DNA from: Trichoplax sp. H2 | Lineage: Eukaryota | Length of the DNA stretch: 64,000 nucleotides | Assembly (NCBI GenBank): GCA_003344405.1 | Contig: NOWV01000018.1 | Location: forward strand, 248,001-312,000 | Direction: 5' to 3' | Shown: in pieces, positions 7,084-56,168 of the stretch | Position numbering within the stretch: position 1 is the stretch's first letter | Layout: every line of letters begins with the position of its first letter | Translations under genes and position numbers: made by a program | The notes under the pieces: generated by a model | Seen by the model: only the letters and a program-made list of their open reading frames with translations | Database searches by the model: none | What the model was told of the DNA's origin: nothing

Positions 7084-8339
7084 ATGTCCGTGCCTGCTGT
7101 GACTGAAATTATAGCAGATATAGAAAATGATGTAGTAACTGCTGAAATGATATTGTATAAAGGAGAAAAGTGTGAACACGAGGTACTTTAGTGCTTTATG
7201 CAAGTTTGCACTTAGTTTAGGTCAGTTATAATTTGAGAAAATTTCTATACCCAATGAGCTTAGAATCCATTTTACAATGTAAACGAATATAAGATGAAAT
7301 CTATTCTATATGTACATTATACAAGTCATGTTTGCTGTCTTCTTTATCAAAGTAAATATTATTCTATTGATTATGATTAGTTCTGTACAGTGTACATGAA
7401 CTTGCTTGTATTGTAATTTAAATTCTTGTATTTTGGAAGAATTGTACGCTTCGACAACGCTGACATGTAGTCAAGTTTATTATTGATGAAGGGCGCATCC
7501 TAAAATTTAAAATTTATTGCTTTCTATGCGGCATATTGAACATTTTGGTTGAATAATATCTATCTACAGGTCCTGTTTTATTTCATCAAATGATCAATCA
7601 GCCATAGTTAACCTTGTAGTGCAAGCTTTCGACTAATATACTGTAATTTAAGGGCAGTTAAATGCTACTGTAGTGATGATAATGATTATTCAGCAAGTGT
7701 GGTAATAACCATACATGTAAATGTCCTATTAAGTTATTCAACGGGGCATTTTTAATTCATTTCCTTAATCGATATTTCTATTAGTAATCTAAATCAGGAT
7801 TGGTTGAACTATACGTTAATGATAATCGAATACACCTTACCATGTATCATTGACAAACATTGAATGGAGCTGCAAGGCATGTTCAAAATATTACTTATAG
7901 CAGATAGTATCATGAAACCCTGATACCCCTGATATTGCTGACTTGGAAGCGGAAAGGAAAGAGTTTGAGATTTGCATTTCAGTTCTGGCCACAAAACGCA
8001 CTTGATTCAAGTAGTCATTTGAAGTTCAAGATTTACAATATAGTTCATAATTGAATTTCTATAATTGGAGGGGATTGTACATTACACATTATATGCGTTC
8101 TACAAATTCCAGTCTACAGTACAATAACTTTGAGCCTAGTGTCGCTGTTGAATATACTACATCGTAGCCATAGATGATAATAAAAGCTTCTTGCTCACCC
8201 AATTTTTATTATCTTTCCTTTTCCACTACTGTAGGTCGGTATCATGGATGATAATAATGATGATAAATTCGATACGCGCGCCGAGCTCGAACGCAGACGT
8301 CAAGAGCAATTCAGAAGAAGTAAAAGCTGTGGTTTGCCG
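7084..8339 (+). CDS. Candidate 5' coding exons of the supervillin-like gene
   Basis: Exon 7084-7182 (ATG start, MSVPAVTEIIADIENDVVTAEMILYKGEKCEHE, donor GAG|gtactt) and exon 8235-8339 (tag|VGIMDDNNDDKFDTRAELERRRQEQFRRSKSCGLP|gtatgt) are both phase 0. They are compatible with the phase-0 acceptor at 12764. There is no homology support. Confidence 0.55.
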
Positions 8340-9033: not shown

Positions 9034-10571
9034 AAGTACAGTGTCAATACTACTGTAATATGATAATAATGAGTCACTGGCGTTTTACAAACCATGATCG
9101 GAAATTGAATACTGTTGTTGAATGATATTGAGTAAAACTTGTGGCACGGTAGATGTATTTGAGCTACGTTGGTGTTTTCGATCATTTAAAATTATAATGA
9201 ATAATAATTATTGTTAGGCCTGTCAAGCAACGGTATGAAGACTTGTGCTAGGTTCGCCTATTTGGGTCGTTGAGGGCCATAGGAATTGGAGATCGCTGCG
9301 CCACTGAAAGGCCATGACTCTTGGAATAAGATTGATACTCGATCTACATTAGTTCAGTAGTTGGATTATAGTAGTTTCTCGAAGGGCTGCAGTCTTGTAC
9401 TTTAAATTTGGGGGATCGGTAATGGTTCATTATATATATATATATTGTATTAACTAATCAAGTCATTATCAATTTCTACCCATAAACTGGTCAGATATGT
9501 AAGATTCGTTTACCGTAGATAAACTGATGGAAGACTTGAGTTTAAATTGCATTTTTTGAGTCTACACTACGTAGGAGTATTTCATAAGCACGGCATGCCA
9601 TCTATTCATTCAAGTCCATACGCCATGCTAGTAAGAGGGACTACTCCAAGAAAGGAGTTTCCTCCATAACCGCATCGACAATACACGAAGGGGGTCAAGA
9701 TGACCAATAACCTTCCTTAAATAACTGACGTTGTCTATAGCGAATAAATGCATCCAAATTACTGATTTCCAACTCTTTCTACCTATGTATTTTATCGTGC
9801 AATGGCTACCTATAGCCTATACTTTCAAATTGAATCCATCTGTTATTCCTGCAGACATGTTGGATTGCAAGCCATTTCTCCAACTGTCATGTCGGTCGGT
9901 ATAAGACGAGTGTTGCTATTATTTATATAGCTCGGGTGGTATTGTTTGAACACCGGCTAGTAAAACGTCATCGCATGGCTTTTTGTTGATTTTCTTCCTA
10001 TTGGCTGTCGTTATTGTCAATAGTATATCGTATACACTCAATAGCGTACCATAAAACACTATAGCATGAGCCATTACCATGGGCTTATTTCTCATTGAAA
10101 TTCATCTTAGAAGCACCCTTTTAAAAAAATAAAAAAAAATAGCTTGCAGTCAATACAAGTTTTCTATCCTCCATTTCATTAGCCATTAGTTTATTCTTGG
10201 GCTTATCCTACCTGTATTTTTTTTTACAATCCTTTTACCTCAGCTACGCCTGTTGAGAAGGTATCGGAAGTAAGTGTTTATGCCTAGTGATTTTAGCCAA
10301 TACCATGTTGATGTTTAGATTAGATTGTTATTTCTACAAATTTAGCACATTTCATCAGTTCGGTATGAATAAATAGTTTAGACACGGTTAGGATAATATT
10401 GGAGGCAACTGGAAAGATGGATAGTAGAGTAGACTAGGCAATGGATGGTGTAGTCGATCAGGGTTAAATAGTTGAAATGGTTTGCCTGTAGTTATTGAAA
10501 GTTGCAATCCAATCGATTGACTTGGTACTTTTCCTGACTGCACACTGTGCAGTAGGCATTTGACCAACTGG

Positions 10572-12763: not shown

Positions 12764-15700
12764 GAAAACTATCCTCTGCAAAAAGAGGCAGCTGTAGAGA
12801 ATAATTTAAATTCAAAGAAGAAAATAACACGATTTGACAAGAAACCAATTTTAAAGAGTCGTAAGAGTTTACCGGCTTTTAGGTTGCAAGACTCATCCGA
12901 GAATCGGGACTCTACTACTGACAATAATAATAATAATAACAATAATAATCAAAGCAAAATCTCTCGTCTCTTTAATGTTACGTTAAAATCACCGACTGAT
13001 CGTAACAAAAGTAATCACCACCAAGATCATAGTATTGGATCGAAGAAAGAATTTCGTCGACAAGTAGCACATGTTAGGGATAATCTTAATCGCCATGAGT
13101 TATCAACCAAGCATTCAAACATAACTGCACCCCGCACTAGTCACGGGGTCGAAAAAGAAAATCCACAACAATTACAAGAGGCACTGCAAAAACGCTCTCA
13201 ATTAAGATCGACTAAAAGTAACCATCTACTTGATCAAGATAATAAAAGGCGTAAATTATCGCAAATCAAAGCTAAATTAGCTACAACCTTTACAGAATTA
13301 GAAATGGAATTGGAAAAACAAGGTGATGATATTGATGCTGAAGTTTTCACCGATTATCCAGCAGATAGTAGCCAATCGTCAAAGTCCAACATAGCTCAAG
13401 GTAGTAGTCGTAAATCTTCTGATATGATACCTGGTGAATCACAAGAATTGGTAACTAGGAAACTCTCGCTAAAATCTGTTGGTTCTATAGCTGATGCAAA
13501 CAATGATAGAAAGTTATCAAAACCGGATACATCTGGCGCTGAATTTTTACACATTAAATCTTCCTTAAGAACAGCTTCTAAACGATCAGCTGCCAAAAAT
13601 GATAATGAACCTGAAAAGGACGAGCATCAAGTACTCGCTCAAAGGAAATTGTCATTGAAAAATACTTCTCGTGGTCTTGCACAAATTAGTGAAAGCGATA
13701 AAAAGACTGGTAATGAAGCCTTACCTTTCTTACAAATGAAAAATTTATTGAAATCCACTGGTAGAGGCAAGCATATTATAACCGAAGCTGGCGATGATAA
13801 CACCAATAATGATACCAAGGTAGTGAAAGCAACCCGAACGGAAAGCGACAAAGAGGAACTAGTCCCTGCTCTAATGCAGACTAAATCTTTACTAAAACGA
13901 AAAGAGAATAAGCTAGAAGATGTGAATGCAGAAAATAATGCTAAATCGGCTGAGGCTTTGGCTTTTTTACAAGCGAAAGCATTACTACGTGGTACTGGAA
14001 AGCGTGTTGTAGATGAAGAAACACCAAAAACTGAACCGGTCTCATCTGATGGAGATGCTTTTCTTCAGATTAAATCCCAGCTTCGAGGTACTGGAAGACG
14101 TATTGTTGAAGAAGAAAATGAAAATGAAAATGTTGATTCCCCTTCGCCAGAGAATGATGGTTTACTTCAAGTTAAGTCACAACTTCGAGGTACTGGAAGA
14201 CGTACTAGTGAAGAAGATAAAGTAGAAAATATTGATCCCCCTTCTCCAGAGAGTGATGCTTTACTCGAAATTAAGTCACAACATCGAGGTACCGGTAAAC
14301 TTACCATGGATAAAAAACCAGCAAAGGAGGAGTCAACATTTCCCCAAAGTAATATTTCCCATCAGCCGAGGAAAATCTCTTCTGTTACTGTACAGCCTGT
14401 TGCTCAAAAAATAAATGACAACAAAAAAAGTACATCAGAACCAATAGTGTCAAAAGTGGCTCCTACTAGTGCTAAAACTGAAAAGATGAAAGCACAAGAA
14501 CGAAAACTATCTAGTGAAGCGGAAGATATTAAAAGTGAATTAATATCTTTAAAAAGTCAGCTAAGGAAAACAGACAATAAATTTGCAGAAGAAGTCAGCC
14601 AAATCAAGGAACAGGTATAGTCCTTCATCGTAAAGTGTAGTTTTGGTTACTTGCCCATACTGATTACACTAATGACTTATTTTTCAAATGATATATTTAG
14701 GAAACTATTAAAGAAGCAGTGGATGATGTGGATTCGGAATTACGGTAACATATCCAATATTAACAATGTTTCTCATTAGATCCATGATGATATTCTAAGA
14801 TCTTCTCTATTGAAATAATTGTAAGGTATTTTGTTAGTTAACAATTTACATTATCTTGCTATTTTATAATCCAATGCAGGTATAAAAACTTTGCCACATC
14901 TCGTAGAGCCGTAAGGCCAAATCGTCGACAGCGAACTTCTGCCAATCCGTTAAAATCATTACAGAACAGATCTGATTTACTGGAAGATGAAGAGGTACAG
15001 CCTAATATCTTCCTTTAAGCTTTAAGTCATCCTAAGGTTTTACACTAGATAATCGTTTTAGTTCGGCGTACATTATGTAGATTTTGCTGAGGTCTTGTTT
15101 GTTGCTAATGATTTACGTAACTAAAATCTTTTGTCAATCGAGCAATGGTATAAGTAAATAGGATGTAATAGAACCGTTTGATTGTCGTGTTCTATTGAGT
15201 GAGCTAATTTGTATTTCTTATTATTTATTTCCTATGCACGTTAACGTTTGAATAGATGTCAATATACTGCAGATTTTAGTGCGCTAAGATTATTGTCCGA
15301 TAATATAATGTAATAAATGAAATCGATCAGATCAATCACTTTATACAGTTTACGTTATTTTAACGAAATTATTTACTTTCAAATGCTATACTTGTATAAT
15401 GTATGAAATAGTGTTTTTGATAGCCACTACCGATGTAAACATAACTTGTCGCTCCTTATTCAACACTACTACTGCTACTTAACTGTTATTAATACATGCA
15501 CTGTAGTTACTTTCTTCGTCATAATACTGTAGTAATTTATGAAACGAATTTTTTTGATGGTAGGCTGCTGGAAAAAGAGCAACAGCTACCTCTGGAGAAT
15601 CGCTTTCAACGCGTATTCGACTTCCCAGTATGTTCTTAATTATAATTATGATCAATTACTCTTGATCTGCGCTAATTTAAGCTAATATTTTCTGAAATAT

Positions 15701-18700
15701 TGTGCAATAAATAATCCTATAATCTTCTGGCTACTATATCATTGATACTAATAAATTTTGTAATGTAATTAACCATATTGCACCAGCAGAAAATGGTATG
15801 AAAGTGAGAGTATGCTAATCTAGTCTTATTTTCGCTCACACTTAGAAAACCAACAATTTGCTCCAGCTGCAGTTGCTGGACTTGCTGCTGATTTAGATTT
15901 CACCTCAGTTTCTCTTCGCAAGCAAGAGGATATTCCACCACCGTGCTACCCTGATGTTATACTACTTCATATTAAAGGTATATTATAAAGTGTTTAAGAT
16001 TCTTCAGCAGATCTTGATAAGAGGATCTACTATTTGACATTACAGTATTTGCAAGTGGTTCGAATATGAATCTTTTTGGAATTAAATTGTATTAACCTGA
16101 AGACTTGTATATCTCAGGGCGCCGTAATGTCCAGTGCCGTTTTGTTGAACCTATTTCCTCATCAATCAACATTGGCGATGCGTTTATTTTGATAACGCAA
16201 CAAGATATATTTCTATTATTAGGAGATAAAGTTAACGTAATTGAAAAGAATAAGGTAGGCGGGATCTAACGGACAGTACAGTATATTCTAAATATTCGTA
16301 TATATATCGTTCACCTAAGAATCGTAAAGTGCTGAAGTACAGTGAGGCACTAACGCAACGTTAGGGAAAGATTATGCAATAATTTTTACCAATTCATTAA
16401 GTAGTATTTCGTCTATTTCATAACAGTACTATACTGTAGATCAATTCAACGTTATTGTAGAAGTACCACAACTTTGAGAATCATAAGTAACATCTTCTTT
16501 CGTCTAGGCTGCTGAGATAGCGACACTAATTATTCAGCAGAAAGATTACAATTGTAAAGCCTCACGACCGATCATCTACGATAACGTTAAGGATTGTGAT
16601 TTTAACGGTGTTAATACCGACAAATTTTGGGAATATTTAGGTGGAAAACAGCCCTTTACTCGTACGTACATCTTCTACATGGATGTAAACAAAATTAGTT
16701 CAGATATTCTGTATGCTATATTATGAGACTATAAGTTATTACTGTATTCACAAAAAATTTCATTTGCAGCTCTGGATTCTGCCTTAAGTGATGAAGAATT
16801 TGAACAAGGAATCGATGCCATCAATCAAATATTTGTTGTACAATGCAATCCAACGGAAACATTGGTAGAGTTAGATGATTGCAGCGGTAAACCTTTGAGA
16901 GTTTCCTTATTAGATTCCAAAAATGTAAGTTGGATTAGTTTCTATTTGTGTTAGTAAATAGGTAATTGAAAATCCTAATCGGAATTTGCGTTTATGGAAT
17001 ACAAATATAGGTTTATGTTTTGGATTTTGGCAGCGAGGTCTACGTTTGGGCAGGCCGATTCGCAGAAACGGACGCTAGACGAGCCGGAAATAGGCTTGGT
17101 CAAGAAATGTTTGATAAAGAATACCAGTTTGCAGGCCCCATCAATCCTTTACTGCCAATAAGCATTGACAACTATGATGAAGATGAAAAGAAGGTCTCGA
17201 CGGCTAGGCCTCCATGGGGTTTTTTCCAAATTCTTAAAGAACGCACAGAAACGTCTGCTTTCAGAGAAAAATTCTTCGATTGGCCTGAACCCGGTCTTTC
17301 GGATAATTCTAGAACTCTTAAAATGACTTATTTTGAAGAAAAAACGGTTAAAAAGAAGGTATTAGAATATGCACGATAGCTCTAATTATCTAATTTAATT
17401 ATTTAATGTTGTTATTGTGTATTTAATTGTACATTAGAAACCATCGATTCCTTCAGAACTTACAGTCTACGATGCAAAGAATATGATTAAGAATGAGATA
17501 GAGGAACCGAGTACTATATTAGAAGGTCAAGATATAGGAAGAGGTGAAGGTGTACCTTGCAAAGCCGGAGAACCTGGCAATGAAGTAGAACATTTATCTG
17601 TAAAGATATGGATTGTTAGTGGTCGTGTCCATGAAGCTCTAGATCCGAAGGAATATGGAGAGTTCTATTCGGGAGAAACTTATGTAATTTGCTGGCGATA
17701 TCGGGTAACAGTTATTTATGGCAAAAGACGTAGAGCACAGCACAAAACAGGCCGAGATCGAACTGTGTATTTTTATTGGCACGGAAGCGATTGCAGTATT
17801 GGTGATAAAGGAACTTCAGCTCTATTAACTGTAGAGCTTGATGATGAGAAAGCTCCGCAAGTAAATAATTGTGGTGATATCAGCGATTGGAATCGATATA
17901 GAATTAATATTGTATTCTTATATTCTTATATAGATACCGTTGGAACAAGGAAATGAACCACCTTGTTTTTTTCTTTTATTTAGTGGAAAAGCAGTTTTCC
18001 ATATTGGAAGGTATTTGTTATTTTTGCCATATATCGGTATATATTTTTATCATTACTAAATTCTTTTATAATGTGTGTTTGCGTGATGCAGGCGAAATAA
18101 AGCAATGAGTCCTGGAATTGCAGGTATGGTGTACTGCAGTTATCTAACTGTACTACTTGATTAAGAATTACTAAAGACAATCAAATTGTAAATCAATGAT
18201 TTTGACAATATTTTAAAACTCTTTTATTAATAACTATTTGTCCAAGATGATAAAACATGTCGTATGTTTCGAATCCAAAATGAAACTTTAAACGAAACCT
18301 GTTTGGTGGAAATCTTGCCGCGGTAAGCTAATTATTGCGTTATTAAGTTGTTGCTACTTTGTAACGCGGATGCGATAGGCAGGTACCTTAAATTTCAGTT
18401 TAGGATTAAGATAATTCTTAAATTACTAAACTGATCCTTTATTGATTTATAAACAGTACTACATCACTGCGGTCGCGTTCCTGTTTGATTATTGTTGTTC
18501 CTGGTAAGATTTTATACGTTTGGAATGGTTTAAAGGCTTCTGAGGCGATACGTAAAATGGCGAAACATGCTGCGGAGTCTTTTCTGTCCCGGTTGGTTAT
18601 TAGCTAAGCTAGGCATTATATTCGGTCTATTTGCTACAGACTATTTTATAAAAAAACAGCACCTATCTGAAACTATTCTATCCTTCGATAAGGTTGGAAG

Positions 18701-20132
18701 ATGTAGCTGAGAGTCAGGAAATCGAAGAAGGTGATGAGACTAAGGCATTTTGGACCATTCTTGGAGGAAGGGATGACTATGGATCTTTATCATGGAGTAT
18801 GTCGTTATAAATAGCGTCGCACTAAAATTAGCAATTATATGTATATGTTTTTGCTAAATAGCGATACATTATTACATAGTACATGCATACGTACCTTAAT
18901 TTCTGCTATATTCATAAATCACTACCTAATAAACTTGAAAAATTTCTTGTTTTAGGTGATAAAAGCTATAATTTCAGACCGAGACTATTCGCCATGAATA
19001 GTAAGACTGGATACTTTATCGCAGACGAGATTCTATCTCCGACTAGAGTACCTAAAGAGCCATATCCTTTTCCTTTTGTTCAATCAGATATTTATTGTGC
19101 GGAACAGCCTGGTAACATTGCAATCAATTGGTTCGGATTGACTTTTATGTATTATTTGATTATTGTTTGTTTATTTCTTTAGCTATTTTTCTTGTTGATG
19201 CATACCACGAGGTATATTTATGGCTTGGTTGGTGGCGAATAGTTGATGGTGAAGAAATTGTTGCTAGAATAGGTGCTGCTGATGTTCGCTGGATTAAAAA
19301 TAAAAAATTAGCTATTGAAACAGCCTATAATTATTGTCAAGGTACGGAATAACTATCAAGAAGAGTATTTTTTTAATCGTTATAATCGGTAATATTAGTC
19401 ATTCATAGCGTCTTATAGTAAAATAGTTTGTATTTAACAATTGCGATTTTCTTCCTTTCGGATTACATTAGCGTTGAAACGTGATATGAGTGCAGCTATG
19501 ATTGTGCTAGCAGGCTATGAACCAATTGCTTTTCAAGCTATCTTTCCAGAATGGGATGTTGATATGGATGCAAGAAAAGCAAATATGAAGGTAAAAGGAG
19601 AATCCATTAGTTGTCGCTTGTCATTTATGAACTGCTGCTGTTCTAGTGTGTGGTATAGCAATTTCTCGATTTAAAAATCGTATATACTTGTTTTTGTCCA
19701 GGAATTTCGCAGTGTGTATTCTAACAAAAGAGTATTAATTCAAGACGAAATGAAAAAATTGTTAACGTTAGTCGGACTTGGCTAATGCGTTATTGATATT
19801 AGGATAAGTCTTGTTCGTTATTATCTATTGTAATTCTATTACAAATCTGTTATGACTTATAGAAAGACTATCTATTCGCTTGAATTATTACGAACTAATC
19901 TACCCGACGATGTTGAGCGCGAGAAAATGGAAGAATACTTAAGTGATGAAGACTTCCAAGTAAGATATGTATTTAACGTTTGCCTTCATTTTAACGAATC
20001 TGGATAAATCTCATAAAGGATAACGAGTTGTCTTTATAAATTTAGATCGCTATTAAGATGAGTAGAAGCGATTTTGCTGCACTTCCAAAGTGGAAAAAGC
20101 TACAAATAAAGAAACAAGCAGGATTATTTTAA
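12764..20132 (+). CDS. SVIL: Supervillin-like protein (long N-terminal extension, gelsolin repeats, villin headpiece)
   Basis: 21 GT-AG exons join in frame (1510 codons incl. stop): 12764-14614, 14701-14744, 14880-14994, 15564-15627, 15846-15977, 16118-16254, 16508-16661, 16770-16924, 17011-17358, 17438-17860, 17934-18010, 18092-18123, 18247-18322, 18457-18591, 18693-18796, 18956-19111, 19183-19341, 19472-19590, 19702-19766, 19863-19959, 20046-20132. Supervillin-type motifs: RRAVRPNRRQRTSANPLK, LLHIKGRRNVQCRFVEP, DFGSEVYVW, FREKFFDWP, PFPFVQSDIY. Headpiece: EEYLSDEDF...LPKWKKLQIKKQAGLF*. Confidence 0.93.
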
Positions 20133-28000: not shown

Positions 28001-29045
28001 TAGAACTGGCATCATGCTATGATTTACAATATAGAGTTCTGGCTAGCTATTATTAGTTTGACCTCCTGATGTCAATGTTATTTTTGTAGCTTTCAGAACA
28101 GCATATCATAACAATAAAATCCTGTAAATTTTCCACCAGAAAAAAATTTCAGTAGATAAACACTACATTACATTACCAAGTCATCTAAACTAGTAAAACA
28201 TAGTTGTATTAATGTGAAGAATCATGCAGCCACCAAGCAGTGATTTTAAGGGCACTCAAAGGGATAAGCGGCATTTATTATGATGATGTCTATTCGTATT
28301 GTTATTTTAGCGGCGACAATAAGCTTAATGGTATTGTTTTATTGCTACAGGTGATCAAATCAGTTTTGATAGTAAGAAGATAATTTTGAAAGAGGTTAAA
28401 AAAGATGATTAAACCTAGAGAGGATATTTACTTAATCAAAGATGTTGGCCATATATTTAGATATAAGCGGATATATAATACAAAGCGAAATCAGTTGATT
28501 AATTCCTATTGTTGATTTTCTGCCTCCTATGATTGTAGTATAGTGGATATAATTAGTCAACTCGAGTTAATAACGTAAAATGGACAAAACTAAGATGAAA
28601 ACTTTCCAACTGTGATCAAGAAAGTACCACGGCGATACACTGCTGCCGTGCTATTGATGAACATCAATCTATTAACGTTAAAACAAGCTACGAATTTATG
28701 ACGTAACGGCATCATTTGGTTACTTATAATAACAATTTGTCATATGATCGTTAGCAATTTTCCCCGTATATATATTTTTTTAATTATAACCGATCTCTAT
28801 GTATCTGTTGTGACTCATATCAAGATACTGCTAGATTTTTATATACTTTACAGATAAAAAAACGTTATTATTGAAAACACTACCGTACTGTAATTATTAA
28901 ATAATCGCAGGAGATGATGATTATTCCGGTGCGTACTTAAAGCGATGGTCACAAGCCGCTTGGTTATAATAAATTGATCATTATTTATAATTCATTACGG
29001 AAAATCATTTTTATGTATCGAAGTAGAGACTAAGGCAGGTTAAGA

Positions 29046-30194
29046 ATGACATTGAGAAACAGAGAGAGTAAAATGGTTGAACCTTCACCCATTATTACTG
29101 GTGTAAGTACACTTCAGAATAATAAAAGTCAACTATATAATGGTTATGGCCAACACTACCCTAGCAACCGGCATTATAGTGAATACGTCAAGGAAGTCAG
29201 GAAGTGGCAAGAAAGCTTTATCAAGCGTGAAAAGCAACAACTAAAAGAAAGTATAAAAAAAGTGCCATCCTGCTCAAATGATCGAATAGGTCAAGCTGAT
29301 AATATTAATCAGTTTAATCGAACAGCAGCACTGAAGAGCAACTCGTATCCTTCGGTACTTTATAAAGGTAGGCTTCACAGTTTTATGCCTAGAAGCGATA
29401 TTGACCGCTTGGATCCGCTCAGCCCACCTTCAACTTTAACTAATCAGAAAGAATTGCGACGTTCTATCATGGCTATGACGGCACAAGGTAACCCACAATC
29501 TAATAATAACATCTCGGTTAAAAGTAATCATTACGGATCTAAAGCAAATAATTTTATGGTCCCAGTCAACCAGAGAAATGTATCTATACCCACTCTCCAT
29601 TATAATAGAGATAAAAGTAGTAAACGTCGATTATCACCTTTATTGATGATTACAAGAAGGCAGCGTCATCATAAAACTACTACTTCTACTTCGATTAAAG
29701 ATCGTAAAAAAGTCAGTGATATTGAAAGTCACATCGATATGACTGTTAAATCATCTGATAAAAATCTCGATCAAGATAGACAGCAACCGGCCAATCCTTT
29801 AACTAATGGAGAACAGGATTGTGGAACAATCACACACGATGACGAGCTAGAGGTTAATAATGGCAATTCGGATAGAAATGATGGTGACGATTCTGAAAAG
29901 AAACAGTTAGTTCAACCTGAGGAATTATCAATGAAAGAGTTGAATCTTGACGATAATGTTGATTCCGACGTAAAAATCGTTATTGATGAAGTAGAAGATA
30001 ACACACAGAATGAAATTACAGAACAGAATGATGTCAGCAGTAGTGATAATCATTTAAAAATTAATTCTGTTTATCCTAAACTAAGGGCCGTTTTTGCCTT
30101 TACTAAATTTCTTAAATGTCAAGGCCAAATATCAAACCTGGTAAAAGAATTAAAGGATATCGTTCACGCAGTTGAGGAAAATACACAAGAATAA
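29046..30194 (+). CDS. Hypothetical single-exon protein, 382 aa, mostly hydrophilic/disordered
   Basis: This is an 1149-nt ATG-to-TAA ORF in AT-rich DNA where background ORFs are under ~100 codons, and its composition is protein-like. I recognise no domain. Confidence 0.8.
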   Translation: MTLRNRESKMVEPSPIITGVSTLQNNKSQLYNGYGQHYPSNRHYSEYVKEVRKWQESFIKREKQQLKESIKKVPSCSNDRIGQADNINQFNRTAALKSNSYPSVLYKGRLHSFMPRSDIDRLDPLSPPSTLTNQKELRRSIMAMTAQGNPQSNNNISVKSNHYGSKANNFMVPVNQRNVSIPTLHYNRDKSSKRRLSPLLMITRRQRHHKTTTSTSIKDRKKVSDIESHIDMTVKSSDKNLDQDRQQPANPLTNGEQDCGTITHDDELEVNNGNSDRNDGDDSEKKQLVQPEELSMKELNLDDNVDSDVKIVIDEVEDNTQNEITEQNDVSSSDNHLKINSVYPKLRAVFAFTKFLKCQGQISNLVKELKDIVHAVEENTQE

Positions 30195-37789: not shown

Positions 37790-40197
<2,408 letters not shown>

Positions 40198-52300: not shown

Positions 52301-52668
52301 AAGTCTGAGTTATGAGTTATTTCAATGCTTCTACGGCCTAATAGATAGCAATGTAGATAGGACCATTGAATCCAGTATGCAGCATTAAACAGCTTATTGA
52401 ATAGTAATACAGTATCTGCATTGCAAATGGCTGTTGGCCTATTACTACTCGTATTATGCTGTACGCATTCTTGTTGATCAGTAGAATATAAAGAAGAGTA
52501 TATTATTTGTATAGCACTTTTATGTGTATAGCTCAGCGTTTAGACCATTCGATACTAAGCAGTAAGTTTTCTAATAACGAAGGGCTTTACTTAAGAAACT
52601 AAGCAACTCATCACAGTATAATGTACCAATTATGCAGGCCAAATTGCAGAGCCAAATATGCAGGTTGC

Positions 52669-53214
52669 AGATCTCTATATCTGTAATAACAGAATGATGC
52701 AGAGTAGTCACGACAGTCATAGAGTTCCTTTCTACAGATTCTACAGTATAGTTCCGAATAGTCTGCTGTCGATATTATATTATGGAAATTGATTTCTTTA
52801 CAAGGCATCTGCAAGAAAGGAATTATAACAGCATGTAGTAGTAACAGTTGTAGATCTCTATGCCTGTAATAGCAGAACGATGTAGAGTAGTCACGACAGT
52901 TATAGAGTTCCTTTCTACAGATTCTACAGTATAGTTCCGAATAGTCTGCTGTCGATATCATATTATGGAAATTGATTTCTTTACAAAGCATCTGCAAGAA
53001 ATGAATTATAACGGCATGTAGTAGCAACAGTTTTAGATCTCTATGCCTGTAATAGCAGAATGATGCAGAGTAGTCACGACAGTCATAGAATTCCTTTCTA
53101 CGGATTCTACAGTATAGTTGCGAATAGTCTACTGTCGATATTATATTATGGAAATTGATTTCTTTACAAGGCATCTGCAAGGAATGAATTATAACAGCAT
53201 GTAGTAGTAACAGT
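52669..53214. repeat. Tandem repeat, 183-bp unit, 3 highly similar copies
   Basis: The anchor agatctctat occurs at 52669, 52852 and 53035, an exact 183-bp period. Units differ only by scattered substitutions. Confidence 0.95.
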
Positions 53215-53497: not shown

Positions 53498-56168
53498 ATG
53501 CGATTTCTGCTATTTATAGTATGTCTGACGAGTATCTTGCCATGTAGCTGTGGGCTAAAAGTAGCTATCTTGCCAATGATGGGTGGAAGTCATGTTCTAA
53601 CTATGGATATCATCACACAACAGTTGATTGAGAGAGGACATGAGGTAAGAACAGCCATAACTAAATTGACTACAGAGTAAACTTTGATCGATCTGTTAAG
53701 GTTATAGAACAAATAAGAACATACTTAGTTGATGAAATTTCTTTGGTATCGTTTTTACTCTATGTCTATATCAATTAAGGTGTGAATAATCTTCATTACA
53801 CTATATATCTATTCTGTGCAATCGTCAGATCGATGTAAGCTGAACTGTGTTAACAGCAAGCTGCAACAACTTTATTACGTGTCTAGAAGAGATACAACAA
53901 TGATTAACTAGATAACAACCATGGAGGAAGTGATATACTACAGCTATATCGTAAATGTTTCGGTCATAGAACGTATTGTGCATTCTATGGTGCTCAAACA
54001 TTCATAGTATCGGGACTAACTGACCTATAGAATTGAGCAGAAAGCATTCAAGCAAATTATTTTGCTAAGGACGTCATGCTCAGCGCTTATTGAGCATGTG
54101 TACGTGTGTAAACGAATCTTCTTGGATTGCTAATCAAAGTAACTACTTTATTCCATCGACAAATTACTTCTATCACAAAATATTGATGGTAAAATTAACA
54201 GTAAACTATTTTTTAAACAAGCAGGATGAATCGAGTCGCCTACAAAATTTCAAACTCTGCTGAAAGATAATTTCAATACTTGGTATATTACTTGCCACGC
54301 TAGTAATTAGCTATGGATTGCTAAATTACAGGTAATTTAGTGATCCATGAACTAATATCATATGCCATGCAGATATAGTAGATAAAATAAGTGTATATAT
54401 ACATTGAATAAGTCAACTTGAGTATGTAAGTACACTGAAGCCCAAAGCACATCGTATAGCGTACGAGTATATGTATTACAATTAGATGACATGCCATTAT
54501 GATGCTTTTTATTAATATTATATACTTTTATTTATAAGCGTTTCATAAGCTGTCTCTAAATTGACAATACTGTTTACCACGTATTAATCCTCACTAAATG
54601 ATATTAACACGTATCCTGATACTTTTCCTAGACTGTAACCATCATCTCCAATCAACCCGGTCAGCTCCGAAAAATGAAACCATCTCCAACCGTTTTATAC
54701 AACGTTGAGAACCCAATTATTGCAGGCCAAAGAGCAGCCAATGTTACAAAATTATCTCTAATTGGCTTAGTTCAAAGTCTATTCGAAATACAACGACAGT
54801 ATTGTGAAGCTACCTTAGCTAACGATACACTAGTCCGGTTGCTAGACGATGTCGACATTTTCGTAACTGATAGCTTATATATCTGCGGCGTACTGGTACC
54901 AGAAATGCTTCAAAAGCCTAATATAATCATATCCCTTGGAGCAGATATTATTGGTTATCATACATTCTTAGCAGATTATGCTGATTCAACTTATATCCCA
55001 ATGCTGGGTTTTTTCCATTCTACAAAGTTAACTATGATTCAACGGGCCTTTAATGCAGCCATTAAACAATTCTTACTAATTACTTATTCATACATGTCAT
55101 CGAATTTAATGAATAGTTTACGATACAAGTTCAACATTAGCACACAGTCAAGTCATTATAGAATAAAAAGAAATCCATCGCTTTTTCTAGCTGCATGTGA
55201 TTTTGCTTTAGAATATCCGAGACCATTACCACCGAATATCAAAGTTATTGGGCCATTATCTCCTCGACCTTCATCATCATTATCTAAAGAACTTGAAGAT
55301 TATATGCAAGCTTCTGATAACGGTATCATCGTATTATCATTAGGCACGGAATTACAACTGCCTAAAGGTAAAGCTACAGAAATGTTGAAAGCTCTAGCAC
55401 AAATACCATATCGTGTGTTGTGGAAAGGTAATCAACCCGAAGAAACAATTTCAGATAACGTAAAAGTAATCAAATGGATGCCACAAAATGATATCCTTGG
55501 CCACAACAAGACGGTTGGATTTATCACACATTGTGGAGCAAACGGTTTATATGAAGCTGCTTATCATGGAGTCCCAATGATTGGAATGCCCTCAATGATT
55601 GAACAAAAAGGAAACGCAGGTAGAATGGTTGGTGCAGGTATCGGCGTACTTATTAACTATCATCAATTTCAAGCGAAGGATATAGTGAAGGCTGTTCAAG
55701 AAATAACTACCAATGGAAGGTATATGATAGTATATTAAAAGAGTAATTTATTCCTCTTATTTAGTTTACCACGGTCTAGCATAGTGTTATAGAAATAATA
55801 TAACAGCTTTTAAAATTATTTGTGCAATTGATTTATGATCAACGTTTCACTTGTATCGTTACTACTATAGTAAATTGTAATGGTCTAAATTTGTAACTAG
55901 ATACAAAGAAAATGTTATGAAGGTTTCACGTATTTTGAAAAGCAGGCCAAGAGCTCCGCGAGATGTTGTCGTTGATTGGGTCGAATATGTCGCTAATACT
56001 AATGGAGCACATCATTTAAAAGTTAAGGGTGAAGAACTCTGGCTGTATGAGTATTATAATCTAGATGTGTGCTTGTTTATCGCAATGATAATGTATTTTA
56101 TATATCTTATGATGAGAGTGTGCAAAAATATGATGTTGGGAAAGCAATCCAAGTTGAAAGATGACTAA
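53498..56168 (+). CDS. Membrane-bound UDP-glycosyltransferase (UDP-glucuronosyltransferase/GT1 family), 500 aa
   Basis: Exons 53498-53644, 54632-55719 and 55901-56168 total 1503 nt. Features: signal peptide MRFLLFIVCLTSILPCSCG, catalytic His in GGSHV, EYPRPLPPN, UGT signature WMPQNDILGH...FITHCGANGLYEAAYHGVPMIGMP, DWVEYV...GAHHL, a C-terminal TM helix and the ER-retrieval KxKxx motif (KLKDD). Confidence 0.95.

What the first reader, a model, noticed from the sequence alone, without database searches (positions are those of the whole stretch)
13181..14572. Supervillin with an N-terminal array of ~12 short WH2/FAM107-like putative actin-binding motifs
Seen: the giant exon repeats the pattern hh-x-x-[KR]-x-x-L-[KR]-x-[TV], mostly every 30-45 aa: ALQKRSQLRST, LSQIKAKLATT, LVTRKLSLKSV, FLHIKSSLRTA, LAQRKLSLKNT, FLQMKNLLKST, LMQTKSLLKRK, FLQAKALLRGT, FLQIKSQLRGT, LLQVKSQLRGT, LLEIKSQHRGT, LISLKSQLRKT. 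The spacers are acidic or disordered. Established: an amphipathic helix followed by L[KR][KR][TV] is the WH2/beta-thymosin actin-binding signature, and tandem WH2 arrays nucleate actin in Spire and Cobl. From memory, the actin bundler FAM107A/DRR1 has a similar short motif (EFIKVRENLRR). I do not know of such a regular array in vertebrate supervillin. Inference: a multivalent actin nucleator or bundler fused to a gelsolin/headpiece module. Caveat: the helix-to-LKKT spacing is shorter than in canonical WH2.
Basis: partly seen in the sequence, partly recalled or inferred. Interest (0 to 1): 0.72.

Follow-up and report, generated by a model that had tools for sequence, protein, structure and literature searches.

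The report
Repeated short motif in placozoan supervillin
The disordered front half of the Trichoplax supervillin protein carries twelve copies of a short basic motif that other supervillins lack; it may be a string of weak actin-filament docking sites, but no tool here could test binding.

Summary
All 12 listed strings lie in one frame of a 1851-nt exon (12764-14614, +). The strict pattern occurs 8 times against 0.01 expected (0 of 5000 shuffles). Seven of 11 spacings are 30-34 residues.

The gene is the Trichoplax supervillin orthologue. Its C-terminal 769 aa are 34-36% identical to vertebrate supervillins (E about 1e-139). RNA contigs show the exon spliced.

The array is lineage-specific. 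A profile of the repeats finds 12 of 12 copies in Trichoplax and nothing above noise in 92 other supervillin-group proteins.

WH2, thymosin and FAM107 membership is not supported: Pfam gave no family at E<=10 and a PDB profile search gave no actin-binding peptide. The F-actin motif VxxLxxxFE reported in human supervillin is also absent.

In a more distant placozoan, alignment in this exon survives only in patches that begin at motifs. Motif 9 keeps F, L, I and K while its flanks fall to random identity.

Best reading (0.45): multivalent, weak actin-filament-binding linear motifs in the slot where vertebrate supervillin has three F-actin-binding regions. Rivals are membrane/PIP2 or kinase sites, true WH2-like nucleation, and neutral repeats. 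Co-folding with actin never ran, so binding is untested.

The parts
12764..14614 (+). Giant exon (617 codons) encoding the disordered N-terminal region of the supervillin orthologue
   Evidence: Open frame. 99% identical to P0001 aa 42-656 and identical to the Trichoplax sp. H2 'Supervillin' P0118. Acceptor ag|12764 and donor 14614|gt. An RNA contig joins 14612->14699 with GT..AG and joins an upstream exon to 12763/4.
13181..13213 (+). Motif copy 1, ALQKRSQLRST
   Evidence: 17.1 bits to the repeat profile
13256..13288 (+). Motif copy 2, LSQIKAKLATT (degenerate: A at position 9)
   Evidence: 14.5 bits
13448..13480 (+). Motif copy 3, LVTRKLSLKSV
   Evidence: 14.0 bits. The one strain variant inside a motif (13453 A>G) is synonymous.
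13544..13576 (+). Motif copy 4, FLHIKSSLRTA
   Evidence: 17.1 bits
13634..13666 (+). Motif copy 5, LAQRKLSLKNT
   Evidence: 17.3 bits
13727..13759 (+). Motif copy 6, FLQMKNLLKST
   Evidence: 18.5 bits. A contig of the distant relative (run X21) starts to align at 13716, just before this copy.
13871..13903 (+). Motif copy 7, LMQTKSLLKRK (degenerate: K at position 11)
   Evidence: 15.6 bits
13964..13996 (+). Motif copy 8, FLQAKALLRGT
   Evidence: 18.9 bits
14060..14092 (+). Motif copy 9, FLQIKSQLRGT (closest to consensus)
   Evidence: 25.5 bits. In the distant relative (run X22) the first half reads GDTFLNIKSS against GDAFLQIKSQ here, and 14081-14123 aligns at 36 of 43 nt.
14162..14194 (+). Motif copy 10, LLQVKSQLRGT
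   Evidence: 23.3 bits
14261..14293 (+). Motif copy 11, LLEIKSQHRGT
   Evidence: 21.3 bits
14540..14572 (+). Motif copy 12, LISLKSQLRKT
   Evidence: 17.2 bits
14054..14292 (+). 99-nt DNA tandem repeat (2.4 copies, 82% matches) covering copies 9-11: the youngest part of the array
   Evidence: pairwise nt identities
8235..8339 (+). Upstream coding exon (...ELERRRQEQFRRSKSCGLP) that the RNA contig joins directly to 12764
   Evidence: tblastn of P0118 aa 34-68 and the position of the loose-end string
15846..20129 (+). Downstream exons encoding the gelsolin-like repeats and villin headpiece of the same gene
   Evidence: tblastn map. 15 GT..AG joints are listed for the RNA contigs, with 11 more rows not shown. 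Pfam Gelsolin 1.5e-18 and VHP 2.8e-16 in P0118.

Best explanation
The 12 copies are a placozoan-specific array of short linear motifs. The consensus is [DE]-A-[FL]-L-Q-h-K-S-x-L-[RK]-x-T-G-[RK]-[RK]. From the sequence I infer about two and a half turns of helix, bounded by P/D/E/S before it and G/S/T after it, then a basic tail. The copies are set in acidic disordered spacers in the N-terminal region of the Trichoplax supervillin orthologue.

The most likely function is multivalent, individually weak binding to actin filaments. Each copy would dock one actin subunit, and the roughly 31-34-residue period would let neighbouring copies reach neighbouring subunits. The array would then hold the protein along a filament or bridge filaments, while the C-terminal gelsolin-like repeats and headpiece add further contacts. 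On this reading it is the functional counterpart of the three F-actin-binding stretches mapped in the disordered N-terminus of vertebrate supervillin.

Shown here: the array, its excess over chance, its transcription, its absence from other supervillins, and patchy conservation in a second placozoan.

Inferred: helix formation, actin as the partner, and one copy per subunit.
For: - The array is real and non-random.
- The exon is transcribed and spliced.
- The protein is a supervillin orthologue with gelsolin repeats and headpiece.
[quoted passage not shown] A myosin-II site lies just upstream at residues 99-153 (passages read in PMC5802837, and PMC3842989). The Trichoplax array occupies the same position, between a short N-terminal segment and the gelsolin-like region.
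- Single-helix linear motifs of about 9 residues are an established way to bind the cleft between actin subdomains 1 and 3, and human supervillin is listed among the 103 proteins carrying one (PMC13364712, sections read). The Trichoplax motif has hydrophobic residues at positions 1, 4 and 8, the same i, i+3, i+7 spacing.
- Constraint on the motif. The older copies (1-8 and 12) share only the motif, while their spacers differ freely.
- In a relative that is 81-88% identical in nucleotides in the gelsolin exons, the big exon aligns only in patches. One patch starts at 13716 just before copy 6, and another covers 14081-14123 in copy 9. The 30 nt before 14081 encode GDTFLNIKSS (22 of 30 nt identical; F, L, I, K, S kept, two of them through synonymous changes). 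The adjoining spacer letters match at 11-12 of 30.
- Of the 8 strain variants listed in the exon, 4 change the amino acid and all 4 of those lie in spacers.
Against: - No binding test of any kind was obtained.
- No sequence family of actin-binding motifs is matched: Pfam at E<=10, the PDB profile search, and the pattern for VxxLxxxFE, which has 0 hits in P0001.
- At the two positions the SFM paper finds essential or affinity-setting, the motif has L instead of F at P8 and K/R instead of E at P9.
- The helical hydrophobic moment of the motifs (mean 0.33) is no higher than that of all 9-residue windows of the exon (0.32).
- The conservation evidence rests on short printed fragments of one relative. 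The list of aligned pieces was cut, so the extents of the patches are partly inferred from depth bins.
- 4 non-synonymous variants all falling in spacers is not significant, because the motifs make up about a fifth of the exon.
- Copies 9-11 are a recent duplication.
- The SFM paper reports no motif-positive orthologues in Cnidaria, Mollusca or Nematoda for its validated proteins. Deep conservation of such motifs is therefore not the rule.
Confidence: 0.45

Rival explanations
1. The motifs dock something other than actin, or are regulatory sites. One option is basic-hydrophobic patches that bind acidic membrane lipids such as PIP2. Another is repeated sites for a basophilic kinase, because T at position 11 has K/R at -2 and often at +2/+3. 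A third is sites for myosin II or calmodulin.
For: - Each copy with its 3 following residues is strongly basic (+40 net over 168 aa) and sits among acidic spacers.
- T at position 11 in 9 of 12 copies has K/R at position 9 in 11 of 12 and K/R at positions 13-14 in 6-7 of 12.
- The motif resembles the start of the protein's own first gelsolin-like domain...ILLHIKGRRNV... in P0001, and MLLQIKGRRNV in a vertebrate supervillin. Copy 9 reads FLQIK-SQLRGT-GRRIV. By my recollection of the gelsolin sequence, that domain start corresponds to gelsolin 161-169. PMC6080781 (passage read) describes gelsolin 161-169 as a PIP2 site overlapping the F-actin site and conserved across the gelsolin superfamily.
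- That vertebrate supervillin is a membrane-associated protein is seen only in a reference title listed.
Against: - V, A or K replaces T in 3 of 12 copies. This fits a packing role better than an obligatory phospho-acceptor.
- Conserved L, Q and K inside the helix suggest a specific protein interface rather than bulk electrostatics.
- The resemblance to the gelsolin-domain start needs a 6-residue insertion, was noticed after the fact, and was not picked up by the repeat profile.
- No lipid or kinase test was possible.
Confidence: 0.25
2. One reading: the copies are shortened WH2/thymosin-type motifs that bind actin monomers, and the array nucleates filaments as Spire and Cordon-bleu do.
For: - The shape is a short hydrophobic helix followed by L-[KR]-x-[TV], with T/V alternation as in LKK[TV].
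- The period of about 31-34 residues is similar to tandem WH2 or thymosin arrays (the comparison is recalled).
- 3 of 12 copies fit a recalled WH2-type regular expression with the canonical linker.
Against: - No WH2, thymosin or FAM107 family for the exon or for any of the 12 repeats at E<=10.
- No WH2 or thymosin chain in the PDB profile search at E<=10.
- 9 of 12 copies fail the canonical linker length; in most, the L of L[KR]xT is contiguous with the helix.
- According to PMC13364712, WH2 motifs have a basic stretch at P16-P19 well separated from the helix.
- Vertebrate supervillin's N-terminus is known for filament binding and bundling, not nucleation (a reference title).
Confidence: 0.12
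3. The array is a by-product of tandem duplication in a fast-evolving disordered region and has no specific function of its own.
For: - Copies 9-11 are a recent 99-nt tandem duplication.
- The exon has no detectable relatives outside Trichoplax.
- The array is absent from 92 other supervillin-group proteins.
Against: - Copies 1-8 and 12 have lost all spacer similarity yet keep K at position 5 (12 of 12) and L at position 8 (11 of 12).
- The motif core is kept in a more distant placozoan while neighbouring spacers fall to random identity.
Confidence: 0.08

Closest known systems
F-actin-binding regions of the disordered N-terminus of vertebrate supervillin (bovine residues 171-342, 343-571, 570-830)
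   Same: Same protein family. Same position, between a short N-terminal segment and the gelsolin-like region. Disordered and multivalent (passages read).
   Different: No sequence similarity: the repeat profile scores at most -2.3 bits in 92 supervillin-group proteins. The vertebrate proteins instead carry VADLRKLFE, LSVAAKRLLF and LSLAEKLALF, each once. They have no regular array.
[quoted passage not shown]
   Same: A single short helix in a disordered region with hydrophobic residues at i, i+3 and i+7. Human supervillin is on the paper's list, and repeats of the motif occur in some of its proteins.
   Different: P8 is L rather than F, and P9 is K/R rather than E. The pattern finds 0 hits in P0001. 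The SFM has no L[KR]xT-G-[KR][KR] tail.
WH2 / beta-thymosin motifs in tandem (Spire, Cordon-bleu, thymosin repeats)
   Same: Helix followed by L-[KR]-x-[TV]; tandem copies with a period of about 30-38 residues (the periods are recalled).
   Different: No profile match. The linker is too short in 9 of 12 copies. Monomer binding is untested.
Nebulin-type simple repeats (about 35 residues, one per actin subunit; recalled)
   Same: A regular period close to 31-34 residues in a protein that lies along filaments, which suggests one copy per subunit.
   Different: No nebulin family hit at E<=10. The Trichoplax spacers are acidic and variable, and only 12 copies exist.
Gelsolin 161-169 PIP2/F-actin site and its counterpart at the start of supervillin's first gelsolin-like domain
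   Same: hLQhK followed by G-[KR]-R-x-V. The protein's own domain start reads LLHIKGRRNV, and vertebrate supervillin reads LLQIKGRRNV. The site is described as conserved in the superfamily.
   Different: The repeats carry six extra residues (SQLRGT) in the middle and lie in a disordered region rather than in a folded beta-strand. The likeness was noticed after the fact and is not statistically supported.

Membership tests
Supervillin (gelsolin/villin superfamily) | C-terminal gelsolin-like repeats ending in a villin headpiece | tested here: met
   Pfam Gelsolin 1.5e-18 and VHP 2.8e-16 in P0118; the exons map to window 15846-20129.
Supervillin (gelsolin/villin superfamily) | Closer to supervillins than to villin/gelsolin over the whole C-terminal region | tested here: met
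   34-36% identity over 100% of 769 aa with proteins named supervillin, best E 2.9e-139. Plant villins reach 22-24% at E about 1e-30. The H2 record is itself named Supervillin.
Supervillin (gelsolin/villin superfamily) | Long N-terminal region that binds F-actin and myosin II | not testable with these tools
   A long region with no Pfam family except a chance-level lectin match is present. A short ERRRQ string recalls the vertebrate myosin-II site, but BLAST gives E>=1.7.
WH2 (Pfam WH2 family) | Match to the family profile | tested here: not met
   No WH2 family for the exon at E<=10; 0 of 12 repeats matched any family at E<=10. HMMER's filters may drop matches above about E 0.1.
WH2 (Pfam WH2 family) | Helix, then a 4-7-residue linker, then L-[KR]-x-[VT...] (regular expression recalled from ELM) | tested here: not met
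   3 of 12 copies fit; 5 fit only with a 3-residue linker.
WH2 (Pfam WH2 family) | Binds monomeric actin in the cleft between subdomains 1 and 3 | not tested
   A co-folding job with an actin stand-in was prepared but never returned a result.
Beta-thymosin | Match to the family profile or to solved thymosin peptides | tested here: not met
   (Pfam, E<=10). (PDB profile, E<=10): only two MAGI1 PDZ chains.
FAM107 / DRR1 | Match to the family profile | tested here: not met
No such family at E<=10.
SFM (VxxLxxxFE; PMC13364712) | V/I/L at P1, L at P4, F at P8, E at P9; P1 and P8 essential | tested here: not met
   The pattern [VIL]xx[LIVM]xxx[FY][EDQ] has 0 hits in P0001 and 1 in each of three vertebrate supervillins. 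In the repeats, P8 is L in 11 of 12 and P9 is K/R in 11 of 12.
SFM (VxxLxxxFE; PMC13364712) | Predicted or measured docking on filamentous actin with the ITPKA polarity | not tested
   No co-fold was obtained.
Nebulin repeat | Match to the family profile | tested here: not met
   No such family at E<=10.

The most novel reading that the evidence does not exclude
The repeats are a previously undescribed class of actin-binding linear motif: a compact 'helix fused to L[KR]xT' unit, shorter than WH2 and chemically unlike the VxxLxxxFE motif. Arrayed twelve times at about one-subunit spacing, they would make placozoan supervillin a nebulin-like filament-lining or bundling protein. Because the unit also resembles the conserved PIP2/F-actin site at the start of the gelsolin-like region, it may have been copied from that site and may be switched off by PIP2. 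That would give a simple early-animal solution to membrane-regulated actin attachment, and a clean model for the still unmapped actin sites of vertebrate supervillin.
Probability: 0.2. Interest if true: 0.7.

Novelty: new variant of a known kind. Interest (0 to 1): 0.42.

Why it matters
In the passages read here, the N-terminal actin-binding regions of vertebrate supervillin are described only as fragments of about 170-260 residues. In print I found only one residue-level candidate, supervillin's listing among proteins carrying the VxxLxxxFE motif.

A placozoan orthologue that presents one short unit twelve times would be an unusually clean system. It could define a minimal supervillin-type actin (or lipid) docking motif. 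It would also show how multivalent linear motifs arise by tandem duplication in disordered regions of cytoskeletal proteins in an early-branching animal.

If the motifs bind nothing, the case is an ordinary fast-evolving repeat in a disordered region.

Tried and rejected
Searches and jobs that gave nothing:
- Co-folding of repeat 9 (with the 12-repeat alignment A2) with an actin stand-in. I fetched a 376-aa actin ORF (L074:266-1393, 854 bits to Drosophila Actin-5C chains). The job was answered 'queue full' eight times and 'no usable answer' twice. No verdict exists.
- Structure prediction of aa 281-617 of the exon. There is no model, so helix formation is inferred from sequence only.
- phmmer of the exon against 1.84 billion representatives gave 0 hits. 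It did not return the Trichoplax protein either, so the library probably lacks it.
- Word-indexed searches. Among longer proteins only P0001 was found. Among proteins of 220-702 aa none was found. No fragments from other placozoans turned up.
- No whole genome is held for this window.

Ideas tested and dropped:
- Amphipathic helix. The hydrophobic moment of the motifs is not above the exon's background.
- Homology of the ERRRQ string to the vertebrate myosin-II site. BLAST of the first 100 aa of P0118 against the 92 proteins gives E>=1.7, so this stays a lead only.
- Self-BLAST and a crude pattern-enrichment scan, meant to look for other arrays in mite and vertebrate N-termini. Both were uninformative: there were no off-diagonal hits even for the positive control, and the shuffle control was poor.

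Literature:
- 'supervillin'+'Trichoplax' returned 1 paper and 'supervillin'+'Nematostella' returned 4. 'WH2'+'tandem'+'placozoa' returned 5, and 'supervillin'+'WH2' returned 11. Judged from titles and abstracts, none describes this array.
- Chen 2003 and Fedechkin 2013 were not readable; I cite them only through other papers' passages.
- Supplements of PMC13364712, which list the supervillin motif, are closed. I therefore cannot say which human residues they mean.
Full report
**What is there**

The window is AT-rich eukaryotic DNA. On the + strand an open frame runs from 12764 to 14617. The first begins at nt 13181 and the last ends at nt 14572.

None of the shuffles reached 8.
- In six-frame translation of the whole window the pattern occurs 8 times here and 3 times elsewhere; 2 of those 3 run across stop codons.
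- Seven of the eleven spacings are 30-34 residues.
- Position 5 is K/R in 12 of 12 copies. Position 8 is L in 11, position 9 is K/R in 11, position 3 is Q in 8, and position 11 is T in 9. A G-[KR]-[KR] tail follows in about half.
- Each copy with its three following residues is strongly basic (+40 net over 168 aa). The spacers are acidic (-32 over 299 aa).
- Residues before the motif are rich in P, D, E, S and G, and residues 10-12 in G, S and T. From this I infer a helix of about nine residues with caps at both ends. No structure model could be obtained.

**Which gene**

- The exon is 99% identical to residues 42-656 of TRIADDRAFT_54138 of Trichoplax adhaerens (P0001, 1548 aa).
- It is identical to the protein that the Trichoplax sp. 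H2 record names Supervillin (P0118).
- The last 769 residues of P0001 align over their full length at 34-36% identity with proteins named supervillin (best E 2.9e-139) and at 28% with a mite supervillin. Plant villins reach only 22-24% at E about 1e-30.
- Pfam finds gelsolin repeats and a villin headpiece. 'Supervillin' is therefore correct.
- Contigs of a run on record as RNA (X19) carry GT..AG joints through the gene. These include 14612->14699 at the exon's 3' edge, and a join of an upstream exon ending at 8339 directly to 12764. The exon is thus transcribed and spliced. Both deposited gene models place a different small exon in front of it.

**Is the array a standard supervillin feature? 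No.**

- A profile built from the twelve copies scores them at 14.0-25.5 bits.
- It scores nothing above -2.3 bits in the other 92 proteins of the supervillin group. The named ones among these are vertebrate supervillins and one mite; five are unnamed.
- Shuffled versions of the same proteins reach 3.7 bits.
- Pfam annotates only gelsolin, headpiece and two weak DUF matches in two vertebrate supervillins and the mite supervillin.
- The vertebrate N-termini carry other single motifs: VADLRKLFE, LSVAAKRLLF and LSLAEKLALF.
- The exon has no detectable relative outside Trichoplax in the searches I could run. These searches reach few eukaryotes and no other non-bilaterian supervillin, so the statement is limited to what was examined.

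**Is it WH2, thymosin or FAM107? Not by any test available.**

- Pfam gave no such family for the whole exon at E<=10, and no family at all for any of the twelve 28-residue repeats at E<=10.
- A profile of the repeats against every PDB chain at E<=10 gave only two MAGI1 PDZ chains.
- A WH2-type regular expression that I recalled from ELM fits 3 of 12 copies with its canonical 4-7-residue linker, and 5 copies only with a 3-residue linker. In most copies the L of L[KR]xT directly continues the helix.
- The T/V alternation at the last position and the basic residues are WH2-like. The unit works at best 'like' a compressed WH2 and is not a member.

**A second known kind**

PMC13364712 (sections read) defines a nine-residue filament-binding helix, VxxLxxxFE, and lists human supervillin among its 103 carriers. 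The Trichoplax unit shares the i, i+3, i+7 hydrophobic spacing. However, it has L for the essential F at P8 and K/R for E at P9. The pattern is absent from P0001, while each of three vertebrate supervillins has one match. It is not a member of this kind either.

**Constraint**

- Copies 9-11 are a recent 99-nt tandem duplication, so their likeness proves little.
- Copies 1-8 and 12 have lost all spacer similarity yet keep the core.
- Two runs of a third organism hold contigs that align to the gelsolin exons at 81-88% (table 8). I read this organism as a more distant placozoan.
- In the big exon those contigs align only in patches. One starts at 13716, just before copy 6. One covers 14081-14123 inside copy 9. 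Depth in the last bin of the exon suggests a third patch near copy 12, but the piece list was cut, so that is inferred.
- The 30 letters in front of 14081 encode GDTFLNIKSS against GDAFLQIKSQ here. That is 22 of 30 nt identical, with F and S kept through synonymous changes. The letters just outside the patches match at 11-12 of 30.
- Among near-identical strains, the 4 listed amino-acid changes in the exon all lie in spacers. With four events this is not significant.
- Taken together the motifs look better conserved than the spacers, but the evidence is thin.

**Most likely mechanism (confidence 0.45)**

In vertebrate supervillin, three fragments (171-342, 343-571, 570-830) each bind F-actin, and they follow a myosin-II site at residues 99-153 (passages). 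Reference titles listed in those passages describe the N-terminal 830 residues as intrinsically disordered. The Trichoplax array sits in the equivalent slot.

I therefore read it as a multivalent set of weak filament-docking helices, with roughly one copy per actin subunit given the 31-34-residue period. It would act together with the gelsolin-like repeats and the headpiece. Every step after 'conserved array in the right place' is inference.

**Rivals**

- Lipid or kinase sites, or another partner (0.25).
  - For: the units are basic-hydrophobic.
  - For: T11 has basic residues at -2 and often at +2/+3.
  - For: the unit resembles the start of the protein's own first gelsolin-like domain, LLHIKGRRNV. 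I recall this as the counterpart of gelsolin 161-169, a PIP2 site overlapping the F-actin site.
  - Against: that likeness needs a six-residue insertion and was seen after the fact.
- WH2-like monomer binding and nucleation (0.12).
- Neutral duplication (0.08).

**What could not be done**

I obtained an animal-type actin ORF from a metagenome contig and prepared a co-folding job with the repeat alignment. The tool never returned a result and then reported its cap as used. Binding therefore remains untested.

**Verdict**

- The array is new to the supervillins examined.
- WH2/FAM107 membership and the nucleator idea are unsupported.
- A filament-binding role is plausible but unproven.
- This is a new variant of a known kind (tandem linear motifs in a cytoskeletal disordered region), of moderate interest.

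Noticed in passing
window 8235-8339 (+); P0118 aa 34-68: The upstream exon encodes ...TRAELERRRQEQFRRSKS. 65 of 92 other supervillin-group proteins carry [AE]ERRRQ within KAERIARYKAERRRQL, a stretch whose R-Y and R-R residues appear to correspond to the bovine myosin-II-binding residues R107/Y108 and R112/R113 named in PMC3842989 (correspondence inferred, not checked by alignment). BLAST of the first 100 aa gives only E>=1.7, so a shared myosin-II site is a lead, not a finding.
   Followed up: partly
window about 15960-16140 (+); P0001 aa 770-780: The start of the first gelsolin-like domain reads LLHIKGRRNV (vertebrates: LLQIKGRRNV; mite: LLLIKGRRKA). It resembles the N-terminal repeat unit (FLQIK...GRRIV) apart from six extra residues in the repeat. 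This could be chance, or the repeat could have been copied from this site.
   Followed up: partly
window 8339->12764, 9802-9900 and 10183-10269 (+): The two deposited gene models (P0001, P0118) each put a different small exon between the 5' exons and the giant exon. The RNA contig of run X19 joins 8339 directly to 12764. Either the 5' end is alternatively spliced or the models are wrong there.
   Followed up: partly
window 12923-12949 (+): An AAT x9 run encodes the poly-Asn stretch. Its length differs by two codons between the H1 protein and the window/H2 protein.
   Followed up: yes
window 37931-40194 (+): Exons of an ICA69/arfaptin-domain gene (Pfam ICA69 1.7e-25; Arfaptin 2.4e-09 and 3.8e-09).
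   Followed up: no
window 54632-56165 (+): Exons of a UDP-glucuronosyl/glucosyl transferase gene (Pfam UDPGT 2.3e-59 and 5.3e-18).
   Followed up: no
window 29034-30191 (+) and 52614-53213 (-): Long open frames of 386 and 200 aa with no Pfam family at E<=0.01.
   Followed up: no
P0010 aa 934-984, P0017 aa 906-947: The vertebrate supervillin stretch around LSLAEKLALFNKL gives a weak, sub-threshold match to Pfam DUF4695 (E 1.7e-4 and 1e-5). This hints that the short motif is shared with another protein family.
   Followed up: no
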